DNA of 64,000 nt, taken from NCBI GenBank assembly GCA_009914755.4, contig CP086569.2:34752001-34816000 (forward strand), written 5' to 3'. This DNA is from the human T2T-CHM13v2.0 reference genome, Homo sapiens. This document shows positions 15,484-20,019 of this stretch, piece by piece. Both the position numbers and the translations under genes were made by a program. Below the pieces are notes generated by a model, which had not been told where the DNA came from, made no database searches, and saw nothing but the letters and a program-made list of their open reading frames with translations. Each line of letters starts with the position of its first letter. Position 1 is the first letter of the stretch.

Positions 15484-17603
15484 ATATTTTTTAAATGAAA
15501 AAAAATTTCAAAGGTACTCTGCTTGGTACAATAATCAAATGTATAAACTGAGGAATAAAACATAACCATGAAACCTACTTATAACTGCATATGGAAAATA
15601 CAGAGGATAATTTTTTAAATAACATATTTTGAAAGCCTTAACTAGTAATTTGAAGAGTTGGCATTTGAAAGGCCAGTATGAATATACCTTCAAAGCAGCA
15701 ACACAGGTTCCCCATGAGAAACAGCAAACTCAGGCAAAATAAAACCACAAAGGTTCAAGCTCTTCTGACCTTTGAAAGACACAGCACAGACAGTGGTCCT
15801 TAGGACGAAGAGCAGGAGACCCCTAATTCCGTCACCATGGCGATAGGGCATAAACATTGCTGGGTGAGGGCACAATCCACATTGTGAGGTCCAACTGCTG
15901 CCAGGAAGACAGGAGTGCTTTTACATAGACCGAAAGGTCATTGAAGGCTCAGAGTTTTGTTTCAAGAACTGAATCCCAAGCCCACACGTTATTAGGCTGC
16001 GCTTCTTAAAACAAGCTATGAGATGGGAAAAAGGGTACCCACAAACATACGTATACATTATGTATATAATAATATACAGTATCATATATATAATATATAT
16101 AACCTATGTATAATATTGTTTTACATCCTGCATCTTATATTATATATATTGTCTAAAATATAATAATTGATAATATATAAGTTTTATATTTATACAATAT
16201 GACATATAGTATATATTATAATTTATGACATATATAATATATGTTATATATCATATATAGAATATATTATACGGTTAATATACGTATTAAATATAAATTA
16301 TACATTATATATATTATATATAATATATCTGTTATATATAATACCCATTATGCATAATATGTATATTATGTCTTTGTTATATATAGTATAAAACAACATA
16401 TAATAATATATAATTGTATATATAAAATGCGACATATAATATATATTATATTTTATGACATATGTAATATATATTATATATTATATATAATACGTTGTAT
16501 GTATAATACCTATATTAAATATATATTATATGACTATGTTATTAATTACATGTCACATATGTTATATATTATATATTTTACATAGAATATACCGGTTACA
16601 TACAATATATACTATGTTACCTATAATGTATAATTGATTACATGTAAAATAAAGAATGCAATATATTATGTATAATTTATAATATACAATATGTGGAATG
16701 TGATATATATAACATATAATATATGATATATGATATACAGTATATGATATATAACACACAATATATGATACCTAATATATATGGTATACAATATATATTT
16801 TATGATATGTATTCTATATGTTTTATTTTCTGTTATATATAACTATTTGAAATTATATATAACTGTATAATATTTTATGTAAATATGTAATATAATATAT
16901 ATAACTATATAATATATTATATATAACTATATATTATGTTATATATACTTTTATAACATAATTTACATTAAATATCATAATATAATATATATTATATTAT
17001 TTCACATTACATAATATATATTACATATCACCCAATATAAGTAACATACATAATATTATAATATAGATTATATTATGTTATATTAAATATCATATATATC
17101 ATGTATCATATATTCTATAATATATATTACACATTATATAATATGTATGTTGTCTATTATGTGATATATATAACTATATATATAATTATATTATTATACA
17201 TATAACTAGATAAACATGAAATTCTACATATTTTCATTTATAATATATAGAATTATATAATCATATATAATTATTTATATTCTATAAAAAATTATATCAT
17301 TATATAAATTATAATATATAAAAATTATAATATGTACTACAAATATATATATTATATATCATATATGATATAGTACCTTTGTTATATATCATAATACATA
17401 TAAATGTGTATTATGTTATCTACAATTATATAATTTCATATATAAGATATATAATATGTATTATATATTGTATATGTTATGTAATATATAGTATATATAA
17501 GCTGACACAGGATAAATATTATATACTATGACATATAAAATATATGAGGTTATATGTTACATATAAGGCATAGCACATAACATGTAATATATATCATATA
17601 TAA
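15188..17603. repeat. Unit U7 (2416 bp): Alu gamma + conserved C; AT-rich block is chimeric (U5/U6-type 5' part, U3/U25-type 3' part)
   Basis: Switch of variant type between ~16380 and ~16555 ('tcacatatgttatat', 'acacacaatatatgatacctaatat' after that point). Confidence 0.8.
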
Positions 17604-17901
17604 TTTTTTTTTAGACAGAGTCTTGTCCTGTTGCACAGGGTGGAGTACAATGGCGCCATCTTTGCTCACTGCAACATCTGCCTCACGGGTCCAAGCGATT
17701 GTCCTCCCTCAGCCTCCCAGGTAGCTGGGACTACACCACACTGGGACTACACCAGCTGCCACCATGCCTAGCTAATTTGTTGGATTCTTAGTAGTGACAG
17801 CGTTTCACTGTATTGGCCAGGATGGTCTTGATCTCTTCACCTTGTGATCCCCTTGCCTTGGCCTCCAAATTTGCTGGGATTACAGGCCTGAGCCAAGATC
17901 C
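17604..17901 (-). mobile_element. Alu SINE copy (U8)
   Basis: Poly-T at 17604-17612. Confidence 0.9.
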
Positions 17902-20019
17902 ATATTTTGTAAATGAAAAACAATTTCAAAGGTACTCTGCTTGGTACAATAATCAAATGTATAAACTGAGGAATGAAACATAACCATGAAACCTACTTAT
18001 AACTGCATATGGAAAATACAGAGGATAATTTTTTAAATAACATATTTTGAAAGCCTTAACTAGTAATTTGAAGAGTTGGCATTTGAAAGGCCAGTATGAA
18101 TATACCTTCAAAGCAGCAACACAGGTTCCCCATGAGAAAAAGCAAACTCAGGGAAAATAAAACCACAAAGGTTCAATCTCTTCTGACCTTTGAAAGACAC
18201 AGCACAGACAGTGGTCCTTAGGACGAAGAGCAGGAGACCCCTAATTCCGTCACCATGGCGATAGGGCATAAACATTGCTGGGTGAGGGCACAATCCACAT
18301 TGTGAGGTCCAACTGCTGCCAGGAAGACAGGACTGCTTTTACATAGACCGAAAGGTCATTGAAGGCTCAGAGTTTTGTTTCAAGAACTGAATCCCAAGCC
18401 CACATGTTATTAGGCTGCGCTTCTTAAAACAAGTTATGAGATGGGAAAAAGGGCACCCACAAACATACGTATACATTATGTATATAATAATATACAGTAT
18501 CATATATATAATATATATAACCTATGTATAATATTGTTTTACATCCTGCATCTTATATTATATATATTGTCTAAAATATAATAATTGATAATATATAAGT
18601 TTTATATTTATACAATATGACATATAGTATATATTATAATTTATGACATATATAATATATGTTATATATCATATATAGAATATATTATACGGTTAATATA
18701 CGTATTAAATATAAATTATACATTATATATATTATATATAATATATCTGTTATATATAATACCCATTATGCATAATATATATATTATGTCTATGTTATAT
18801 ATAGTATAAAACAACATATAATAATATATAATTGTATATATAAAATGCGACATATAATATATATTTTATTTTATGACATATGTAATATATATTATATATT
18901 ATATATAATATGTTGTATGTATAATACCTATATTAAATATATATTATATGACTATGTTATTAATTACATGTCACATATGTTATATATTATATATTTTACA
19001 TAGAATATACCGGTTACATACAATTTATACTATGTTACCTATAATGTATAATTGATTACATGTAAAATAAAGAATGCAATATATTATGTATAATTTATAA
19101 TATACAATATGTGGAATGTGATATATATAACATATAATATATGATATATGATATACAGTATATGATATATAACATACAATATATGATACCTAATATATAT
19201 GGTATACAATATATATTTTATGATATGTATTCTATATGTTTTATATTCTGTTATATATAACTATTTGAAATTATATATAACTGTATATTTTATGTAAATA
19301 TGTAATATAATATATATAACTATATAATATATTATATATAACTATATATTATGTTATATATACTTTTATAACATAATTTACATAAAATGTCATAATATAA
19401 TATATATTATATTATTTCATATTACATAATATATATTACATATCACCCAATATAAGTAACATACATAATATTATAATATAGATTATATTATGTTATGTTA
19501 AATATCATATATATCATGTATCATATATTCTATAATATATATTATACATTATATAATATGTATGTTGTCTATTATGTGACATATATAACTATATATTATT
19601 ATATTATTATACATATAACTAGATAAACATGTAATTCTACATATTTTCATTTATAATATATAGAATTATATAATCATATATAATTATTTATATTCTATAA
19701 AAAATTATATCATTATATAAATTATAATATAAAAAAATTATAATATGTACTACAAATATATATATTATATATCATATATGATATAGTACCTTTGTTATAT
19801 ATCATAATACATATAAATGTGTATTATGTTATCTATAATTATATAATTTCATATATAAGATGTATAATATGTATTATATATTGTATATGTTATGTAATAT
19901 ATATAGTATATATAAGCTGACACAGGTTAAATATTATATACTATGACATATAAAATATATGAGGTTATATGTTACATATAAGGCATAGCACATAACATGT
20001 AATATATATCATATATATA
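17604..20019. repeat. Unit U8 (2416 bp): Alu beta ('ttgttggattctt', 'ttttgtaaatgaaaaacaattt') + conserved B ('cacatgttatt'); near-identical to U26
   Basis: Shares an AT-rich 2-bp deletion ('ctgtatattttatgtaaat') and 'atatattttattttatgac', 'taatatgttgtatg', 'caatttatactatg' with U26. Confidence 0.85.

What the first reader, a model, noticed from the sequence alone, without database searches (positions are those of the whole stretch)
15690..20019. A >3.6 kb variant block recurs 18 units (~43.5 kb) downstream (59.5-63.5 kb) and partly 4 units upstream (U3-U4)
Seen: the 3' part of U7 plus all of U8 matches U25 (3' part) plus U26, variant for variant. Shared markers are the identical 65-aa spurious ORF (16562 and 60081, also 6893) and the Alu variants 'aatttgttggattcttag' and 'ttttgtaaatg[a/g]aaaacaatttc'. 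Further shared markers are 'gaatgaaacat', 'cacatgttatt', the AT-rich 'atatattttattttatgac' and 'taatatgttgtatg', the 'caatttatactatg' variant and the 2-bp deletion 'ctgtatattttatgtaaat' (19281 and 62801). U3-U4 (5518-10355) carries most of the same markers. It has its own variants ('ttgttcgattctt', 'caatttcgaagg') and diverges in the second half of U4's AT-rich block. Identical multi-kb variant blocks at long range point to large intra-array segmental duplication or a long-period higher-order repeat, not to unit-by-unit drift.
Basis: seen in the sequence. Interest (0 to 1): 0.5.

Follow-up and report, generated by a model that had tools for sequence, protein, structure and literature searches.

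The report
Shared variant patch in human HSat1B/DYZ2 satellite
The window is an ordinary stretch of the human 2.4-kb HSat1B (DYZ2) satellite, and the flagged long-range match is a real 3.1-kb, 99.4%-identical patch, one of about thirty such patches left by the unequal exchange and gene conversion already documented for this satellite.

Summary
The whole 64-kb window is 27 tandem units of about 2,417 bp. Each unit has an AT-rich block, an antisense 5'-truncated Alu and a GC-richer part. It meets every published descriptor of human HSat1B/DYZ2 that I could test. The high-identity block is shorter than claimed: 16375-19496 matches 59894-63017 over 3.12 kb with 17 mismatches and one 2-bp gap (99.39%). 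The claimed flanks are at or below background (96.5% left, 97.9% right). The block is specific: 19 differences to its partner 18 units away, 28 to the copy 4 units upstream, and 51-82 to all 22 other in-register stretches. Its markers are derived and are absent from 43 external copies. It is not exceptional. 29 comparable blocks (0.8-5.1 kb, about 99% or more) cover 78% of the window, and the strongest lie between adjacent units. The three copies of the block have different ends and conflicting head and tail relationships, which makes it a recombination or conversion mosaic. A regular 18-unit higher-order repeat is not supported. An old duplication of about 17-18 units, since eroded, remains possible. 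Known satellite, known process, low interest.

The parts
1..64000 (+). Uninterrupted HSat1B/DYZ2-type satellite array: 26 full units plus 2 partial units of 2,415-2,420 bp, consensus 2,420 bp.
   Evidence: K-mer offset peaks fall at multiples of about 2,417 bp. Anchor k-mers occur once per unit. Units are 97-100% identical to one another. GC is 24.5%, there is 1 CpG per 144 bp, and ACATACG occurs once per unit.
16375..19496 (.). It is the AT-rich tail of anchor unit A7, plus all of A8, plus the first 75 columns of A9.
   Evidence: It is 99.39% identical to 59894-63017. There are 24 differing columns in the 685 bp to its left and 11 in the 523 bp to its right.
58890..63017 (.). X block, copy 3: the longest version, about 4.1 kb. 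Its head matches copy 1 and its tail matches copy 2.
   Evidence: 58890-61779 is 99.27% identical to 5702-8591, and 59894-63017 is 99.39% identical to 16375-19496. It shares derived alleles with copy 1 at 59405-60563 and with copy 2 at 61854-62806.
5702..9832 (.). It is X-type up to about 9.3 kb. Its AT-rich tail then resembles the following units A5/A6.
   Evidence: The last tile of A4 is nearest to A5/A6 (7 differences), not to A8 or A26.
17606..17897 (-). Alu-derived subunit of unit A8 (consensus columns 601-892). It is antisense on the + strand and lacks about 12 nt at the Alu 5' end.
   Evidence: It is 82.7% identical over aligned columns to an AluY consensus that I recalled from memory. 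There is a weak Rfam hit to the Alu-derived mir-1268 on the - strand.
18463..18469 (+). ACATACG heptamer at the junction between the GC-richer (HSATI) part and the AT-rich part. It occurs once in every unit.
   Evidence: There are 26 occurrences, all on the + strand, one per unit. Hallast et al. describe this junction motif.
9351..16716 (.). Recent adjacent-unit triplication (A5, A6, A7). This is the strongest similarity block in the window.
   Evidence: 9351-14299 vs 11768-16716 is 4,951 bp with 11 mismatches. A5 and A6 differ at 3 columns.
4918..20500 (.). Derived-variant ('B') domain 1, units A3 to the left part of A9. These units are 1.6-2.0% from the external bulk consensus.
46021..64000 (.). 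Derived-variant ('B') domain 2, units A20-A27. These units are 1.6-2.2% from the external bulk consensus. It starts 17 units after domain 1.

Best explanation
The window lies inside an array of the human composite satellite HSat1B (DYZ2 on Yq12; the same satellite occurs on the acrocentric short arms). The flagged feature is one of three surviving copies of a locally derived variant haplotype, which I call the X block. It spans about 1.3-1.7 units and sits at 5.7-9.8, 16.4-19.5 and 58.9-63.0 kb. Shown: the copies share private derived alleles. They have sharp but different end points. Their closest relative changes along the block. Inferred: the block was spread and then trimmed by the two processes that homogenise this satellite. 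One is out-of-register exchange between sister chromatids, which duplicates or deletes whole units. The other is non-reciprocal gene conversion between non-adjacent units. Copy 2 is most simply a patch of about 3 kb of X-type sequence inside a run of Y-type units: A5-A7 on its left and the start of A9 on its right are Y-type. It is either a conversion tract from a copy-3-like donor or the remnant of an older multi-unit duplication whose flanks have since been overwritten. The sequence has no coding or RNA function that I could detect. The pattern records array turnover.
For: Identity of the satellite. GC is 24.5%, there is 1 CpG per 144 bp, ACATACG occurs once per unit at the HSATI-to-AT-rich junction, and the consensus is 2,420 bp. 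Hallast et al. report 24% GC, 1 CpG per 150 bp, the ACATACG junction and a 2,420-bp consensus. Each unit has an AT-rich block, an Alu about 17-22% diverged from AluY, and a GC-richer part, which matches the T2T-Y description. The same repeat turns up as short orphan contigs in 19 unrelated bacterial assemblies, most of them about 99% or more identical to the window consensus. That is the contamination signature reported for HSat1B. Block. Specific excess identity. Exclusive derived alleles. The marker strings are absent from the 43 external loci, apart from one string found once in L032. Mosaic. Nearest-neighbour tiles change partner within units. Head and tail relationships conflict among the three copies. 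Copy 2 is embedded in Y-type flanks. Process. 29 blocks of 0.8-5.1 kb cover 78% of the window, and the strongest are between adjacent units. The pedigree study reports de novo structural changes of 2,416-4,839 bp, each removing or adding whole DYZ2 units, at about one per Y transmission. It also reports that 29% of Yq12 point changes look like interlocus gene conversion. The T2T-Y paper attributes Yq12 patterns to unequal exchange and shows small deletions and expansions inside HSat1B sub-arrays.
Against: A tract of 3.1 kb is long for a typical conversion event. No direct evidence separates conversion from an eroded duplication. Copy 3 carries 13 private changes against 2 events in copy 2 (p = 0.007). 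A simple two-copy split with equal rates does not predict that asymmetry. The real donor may lie outside the window. The chromosome (Y or acrocentric) is undetermined. Only 4 of 26 units are 2,420 bp long, whereas that length is modal in Yq12. Human origin rests on contaminant contigs and published descriptors, not on an alignment to a reference genome.
Confidence: 0.8

Rival explanations
1. An old large segmental duplication, a two-copy or few-copy super-repeat of about 17-18 units (41-43.5 kb). The X blocks and the Y-type units that precede them are its remnants. Later one-unit gains and losses and local homogenisation have broken it up.
For: Variant domains alternate: a-type A1-A2, B-type A3-A9, a-type A10-A19, B-type A20-A27. 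The two B domains start 17 units apart. Mean divergence dips to 1.76-2.07% at offsets of 15-18 units, against 2.55% at 9-12. There is a colinear chain. 10567-15667 matches 51665-56767 at offset 17 (5.1 kb, 99.1%), followed by 16375-19496 matching 59894-63017 at offset 18. That is the pattern expected for a duplication of 9-11 kb followed by a one-unit indel.
Against: Y-type units are all similar to each other, so offsets 16, 17 and 18 score equally well and no register is defined. A1-A4 vs A19-A22 are at background. The order of sub-types differs between the domains: the W-type tail follows X in domain 1 and precedes it in domain 2. The left junction of the X block lies at a different column in copy 2 than in copies 1 and 3.
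Confidence: 0.3
2. A regular long-period higher-order repeat of 18 units, or a 4-unit one, is the organising unit of this array.
For: X copies sit at offsets of 4, 18 and 22 units. Divergence is lowest at offset 18.
Against: Offset 4 is elevated only for the A4-A8 pair and in part A5-A9; the other pairs are at background. Offset 18 is elevated for about 3-6 kb of the 20.5 kb that can be compared. The recent A5-A6-A7 triplication means the 4-unit spacing is itself recent and accidental. With 1.5 periods in view, periodicity cannot be shown.
Confidence: 0.07
3. The X-type units belong to an old, genome-wide HSat1B subfamily. Their similarity would then reflect shared ancestry of a unit type and not local copying.
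For: Units do fall into types (a, X, Y, d), and type membership explains much of the distance matrix.
Against: None of the X marker strings, apart from a single hit of one short string, occurs in the 43 external loci, about 50 external unit fragments. The consensus alleles are found in 14-41 of those loci. The block runs across a unit boundary with a fixed register. Copies 2 and 3 are closer to each other (19 differences) than to any other B-type stretch (51 or more). Caveat: assembled contaminant contigs mostly reflect the genome-wide consensus and sample rare variants poorly.
Confidence: 0.07
4. Assembly artefact: a collapsed or mis-joined satellite assembly produced spurious long-range near-identity.
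For: None directly. Satellite arrays are error-prone to assemble. Copy 3, near the window end, has an excess of private changes.
Against: The copies differ at 19-32 positions and have distinct flanks. Unit lengths are regular throughout. Mis-joins would give exact identity or broken register, and neither is seen.
Confidence: 0.03

Closest known systems
Human HSat1B / DYZ2 satellite (Yq12 and acrocentric short arms)
   Same: The unit length, tripartite composition, GC and CpG content, and junction heptamer all match. Units are 0.5-2.2% from the bulk consensus recovered from contaminant contigs.
   Different: Nothing in kind. In this stretch the modal unit length is 2,417 bp and not 2,420 bp. 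About half the units belong to a locally derived variant clade 1.6-2.2% from the bulk consensus.
Local expansions, deletions and interlocus gene conversion documented in Yq12 DYZ1/DYZ2 arrays (Rhie et al. 2023 preprint version; Hallast et al. 2023 preprint version; Porubsky et al. 2025, PMC12240836)
   Same: Near-identical blocks of one to two units between adjacent units match the reported de novo events of 2,416-4,839 bp. Patches shared between non-adjacent units match the reported non-orthologous identical matches.
   Different: Here the events are inferred from one static sequence, not observed in transmission. The tract of about 3.1 kb at 43.5 kb distance is longer than the point-like conversion events scored in the pedigrees.
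Alpha-satellite higher-order repeats and HOR-haplotype layers
   Same: Blocks of variant units recur and local homogenisation produces domains.
   Different: No fixed multi-unit period is demonstrable here. The base unit is a 2.4-kb composite repeat, not a 171-bp monomer.

Membership tests
HSat1B / DYZ2 satellite | Tandem unit of about 2.4 kb (published consensus 2,420 bp) | tested here: met
   The 26 full units are 2,415-2,420 bp and the window consensus is 2,420 bp.
HSat1B / DYZ2 satellite | Composite unit: an AT-rich simple-repeat part, a 5'-truncated diverged AluY fragment, and a GC-richer HSATI part | tested here: met
   The GC profile is 7-21% in the AT-rich blocks and up to 53% in the Alu-derived and GC-richer (HSATI) parts. 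The Alu alignment gives 82.7% identity with about 12 nt missing at the Alu 5' end. The AluY consensus was recalled from memory.
HSat1B / DYZ2 satellite | About 24% GC and about 1 CpG per 150 bp | tested here: met
   24.5% GC and 1 CpG per 144 bp, against the values.
HSat1B / DYZ2 satellite | ACATACG heptamer at the HSATI / AT-rich junction | tested here: met
   One copy per unit, 26 of 26, at the drop in GC content. The motif is described.
HSat1B / DYZ2 satellite | Direct sequence match to the published DYZ2 consensus or to a human reference assembly | not testable with these tools
   No human genome or Dfam library is available. As a proxy, orphan contaminant contigs in 19 bacterial assemblies are mostly about 99% or more identical to the window consensus. 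This fits the HSat1B contamination reported.
Yq12 location (DYZ2 proper, as opposed to acrocentric HSat1B) | Alternation with DYZ1/HSat3 arrays, and Y-specific consensus variants | not testable with these tools
   No DYZ1 lies in the window, and no chromosome-specific consensus is available. The unit-length mode of 2,417 bp differs from the Yq12 mode.
Higher-order repeat (long period) | Elevated identity along the whole diagonal at a fixed multi-unit offset, repeated over three or more periods | tested here: not met
   At offset 18 the per-unit differences are 44, 56, 57, 53, 25, 37, 50 and 16. Only 1.5 periods are visible, so an irregular or eroded super-repeat is not excluded.
Tandem segmental duplication by a single unequal exchange | High identity over a length equal to the offset, with shared junctions | tested here: not met
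   The offset is 43.5 kb but the block is 3.1 kb. The left junction differs between copies, and head and tail relationships conflict. This feature is met for the adjacent-unit blocks at offset 1.

The most novel reading that the evidence does not exclude
The alternation of bulk-like (a) and derived (B) unit domains, with a spacing of about 17 units, together with the recurrence of the Y-Y-Y-X-Y order, could be the visible edge of a real super-repeat of about 41-43.5 kb in this HSat1B array. That would be a long-period higher-order structure not explicitly described for this satellite in the papers I read.
Probability: 0.1. Interest if true: 0.35.

Novelty: already known. Interest (0 to 1): 0.12.

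Why it matters
It matters little beyond bookkeeping. The window is a textbook example of how a long-unit satellite is homogenised: recent one- and two-unit duplications, plus patches copied between distant units. The head/tail conflict among the three copies gives a small, clean illustration that tracts longer than one unit move within HSat1B arrays. This complements the pedigree observations of whole-unit gains and losses and point-like conversion. For a genome scan, the practical lesson is that long-range variant blocks inside such arrays should be expected and not flagged.

Tried and rejected
1. Rfam scan of 15000-20100: only a sub-threshold hit to the Alu-derived mir-1268 family (33.9 bits against a gathering score of 83). 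No RNA gene.
2. Pfam scan of the recurrent 61-, 65-, 67- and 71-aa ORFs: no family. They are spurious ORFs in Alu, HSATI and AT-rich sequence.
3. I tested whether block end points cluster in the AT-rich part, as a possible exchange hotspot. 39 of 58 fall there against 64% expected, p = 0.68. No signal.
4. I looked for primer or probe sequences for HSat1B in the T2T-Y preprint for a direct sequence test. None is printed in the text.
5. A regular 18-unit or 4-unit higher-order repeat is rejected on the per-diagonal difference counts.
6. A genome-wide X subfamily is judged unlikely, because the markers are absent from the external copies.
7. An DNA alignment on the three copies failed on the 3,000-base limit. 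I replaced it with pairwise global alignments in Python.
8. A first MAFFT add-fragments run timed out and was rerun with a faster option.
9. Dating is too loose to be useful. 0.5-0.6% divergence corresponds to about 12,000-15,000 generations at the Yq12 de novo rate of 2e-7, or about 185,000-234,000 generations at 1.3e-8.
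Full report
**What the window is**

K-mer self-matches peak at multiples of about 2,417 bp. Anchor k-mers occur exactly once per unit at 27 regularly spaced positions. This gives 26 full units of 2,415-2,420 bp plus two partial ones. 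I name the anchor-phase units A1-A26, starting at 82, 2500, 4918, 7337, 9757, 12174, 14589, 17006, 19421 and so on.

Units differ from each other at 3-82 of 2,423 alignment columns, typically 55-65, which is about 97.6% identity.

Each unit has three parts:
- an AT-rich block with 7-21% GC;
- an antisense Alu that lacks about 12 nt at its 5' end and is 82.7% identical to an AluY consensus I recalled from memory;
- a GC-richer segment that ends at a conserved ACATACG.

The window has 24.5% GC and 1 CpG per 144 bp, and the consensus unit is 2,420 bp. These values match the published description of DYZ2/HSat1B: a unit of about 2.4 kb made of an AT-rich simple repeat, a 5'-truncated Alu and HSATI; 24% GC; 1 CpG per 150 bp; an ACATACG junction; and a 2,420-bp consensus (Hallast et al., bioRxiv 10.1101/2022.12.01.518658; Rhie et al., bioRxiv 10.1101/2022.12.01.518724).

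A 29-mer from the unit finds short orphan contigs in 19 unrelated bacterial genome assemblies and 24 metagenome stretches. The bacterial-assembly contigs are mostly about 99% or more identical to the window consensus. That is the contamination signature Rhie et al. report for HSat1B. I therefore identify the window as human HSat1B. I cannot say whether it lies on Yq12 or on an acrocentric short arm.

**Checking the observation**

Every marker string is present at the stated places, and the 65-aa ORF is identical at 6893, 16562 and 60081.

I aligned all units with MAFFT and scanned every unit-offset diagonal for low-mismatch segments. On the 18-unit diagonal the block is 16375-19496 vs 59894-63017. 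It is 3.12 kb with 19 differing columns. A direct pairwise global alignment confirms 17 mismatches plus one 2-bp gap, 99.39%.

- 15690-16374 is only 96.5% identical to its partner;
- 19497-20019 is 97.9% identical to its partner.

The 3.1-kb stretch differs at 19 columns from the copy 18 units downstream and at 28 from the copy 4 units upstream. It differs at 51-82 from all 22 other in-register stretches. The Poisson probabilities are 2.5e-7 to 1.6e-10.

Three events are shared only by copies 2 and 3: C at 18333, T at 19025 and a 3-bp deletion at 19285. Seven sites are shared only by the three copies.

**Polarity of the variants**

Adding the external copies to the alignment shows that the external majority haplotype equals the 'a-type' units of the window: A1, A2, A10, A12, A13 and A15-A19. 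These are 0.5-1.3% from the bulk consensus. A3-A9 and A20-A26 form a derived clade 1.6-2.2% from it, and the partial unit A27 groups with that clade on its informative sites. The derived clade has sub-types that I call X, Y and d.

The X markers are essentially absent from all 43 external loci. The corresponding consensus strings occur in 14-41 of them. The X block is therefore a locally derived haplotype and not an old widespread subfamily. One caveat applies: contaminant contigs mainly sample the consensus.

**The block is a mosaic, and it is not special**

Copy 3 (58890-63017) is the hub.
- Its head matches copy 1 (5702-8591, 99.27%). A 1,303-bp core carries 3 mismatches.
- Its tail matches copy 2.
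- Derived alleles shared by copies 1+3 but not 2 lie at 59405-60563 in copy-3 coordinates. Those shared by 2+3 but not 1 lie at 61854-62806.
- The left junction of copy 2, near alignment column 1790 of A7, differs from that of copies 1 and 3, near column 1560.
- The tail of copy 1 switches to the type of its downstream neighbours A5/A6.
- Copy 2 sits between Y-type sequence on both sides.

Conflicting relationships along one block, with different junctions, indicate recombination or gene conversion and not one clean duplication.

Across the window there are 29 blocks of 0.8-5.1 kb at about 99% identity or better. They cover 78% of the sequence. 18 of them lie at offsets of three or more units and 9 at offsets of ten or more. 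The strongest are between adjacent units:
- 9351-14299 vs 11768-16716: 4,951 bp, 11 mismatches;
- 44321-47155 vs 46738-49572: 3 mismatches;
- 52026-55457 vs 54443-57874: 11 mismatches.

**Higher-order repeat or large duplication?**

Mean divergence by unit offset rises from 1.73% at offset 1 to 2.55% at offsets 9-12. It falls to 1.76% at offset 18 and rises again to 2.4% at offsets 20-21.

The dip is broad, spanning offsets 15-18. It comes from the Y-type units (A5-A7 vs A22-A24, all mutually similar) and from the X block. A1-A4 vs A19-A22 are at background. The a/B domains alternate with a spacing of about 17 units.

There is a colinear chain, 10567-15667 with 51665-56767 and then 16375-19496 with 59894-63017, separated by a one-unit indel. 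This is compatible with an old, eroded duplication of about 17-18 units. However, the register of the Y part is ambiguous and the sub-type order differs in detail between the two domains.

A regular higher-order repeat is not supported. In any case it cannot be demonstrated with only 1.5 periods in view.

**Mechanism**

The processes needed are documented for this satellite.
- Rhie et al. attribute Yq12 patterns to unequal exchange. They observe sister chromatid exchanges there and show small deletions and expansions within HSat1B sub-arrays.
- Hallast et al. report localised expansions and contractions of DYZ2 units.
- The four-generation pedigree study found de novo structural changes of 2,416-4,839 bp, each affecting whole DYZ2 units, at about one per Y transmission. 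It also found that 29% of Yq12 de novo point changes have identical non-orthologous matches, which the authors interpret as interlocus gene conversion (PMC12240836).

The adjacent-unit blocks here correspond to the first process. The X-block patches correspond to the second, or to eroded older duplications. I infer, but cannot show, that copy 2 is a conversion tract of about 3 kb from a copy-3-like donor.

One point remains unexplained. Copy 3 has 13 private changes against 2 events in copy 2 (p = 0.007). This may mean the true donor lies outside the window.

**Other checks**

No RNA family reaches threshold. No Pfam family matches the recurrent ORFs. Block end points are not enriched in the AT-rich part.

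**Verdict**

It is not right about a long-period repeat or about anything exceptional. This is a known satellite evolving by known processes.

Noticed in passing
L006:5897-6920 (NZ_HF570958.1, Nostocoides japonicum T1-X7, 5.16-Mb scaffold): A 1,024-bp HSat1B piece, 97.9% identical to the window consensus and about 40% GC, sits between two 100-N gaps inside actinobacterial DNA of 65-78% GC. A human contaminant contig appears to have been scaffolded into a bacterial genome. Eighteen other bacterial assemblies carry the repeat as orphan contigs.
   Followed up: partly
window 9351-16716: Units A5, A6 and A7 are a very recent triplication. A5 and A6 differ at 3 of 2,423 columns. The 4-unit spacing between X copies 1 and 2 is therefore itself recent.
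   Followed up: yes
window 44321-49572 and 52026-57874: There are two further recent one-unit duplications, out of phase with the unit anchor: 2,835 bp with 3 mismatches and 3,432 bp with 11 mismatches. They match the size class of de novo DYZ2 events seen in pedigrees.
   Followed up: partly
window 59894-63017: Copy 3 of the X block has 13 private changes against 2 events in copy 2 over the same 3.1 kb (binomial p = 0.007). Two of them (61250, 61959) are shared in register with the preceding unit A25, which suggests small local conversions.
   Followed up: partly
window 1-64000 (unit types): Units fall into bulk-like 'a' units (0.5-1.3% from the external consensus; A17 at 38769 is closest, with 12 differences) and a derived clade (1.6-2.2%). 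They are arranged in alternating domains: A1-A2, A3-A9, A10-A19, A20-A27.
   Followed up: yes
window 29092-33931 (A13 tail, A14): A13 and A14 share a distinctive AT-rich tail variant. A 73-bp tandem period is seen at 31398-31604, and 68-aa spurious ORFs occur only at 30933 and 33353. A14 is otherwise an outlier to all types.
   Followed up: no
window, AT-rich part of each unit (e.g. 20975-21405): An internal direct duplication of about 230 bp, 1.9 copies at about 76% identity, lies in the AT-rich block. Tandem Repeats Finder reports it in 8 units at a score of 200 or more. It is presumably an old feature of the unit.
   Followed up: no
L020, L026, L029, L030, L041-L043 (BNJT01002008.1, 54 kb) and L024 (BNJU01004413.1, 54.6 kb): Two long metagenome contigs carry multi-unit HSat1B-like arrays. 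Their best matches to the window consensus are 85-98% identical. They may be other human arrays or primate DNA in the sample.
   Followed up: no
   Followed up: yes
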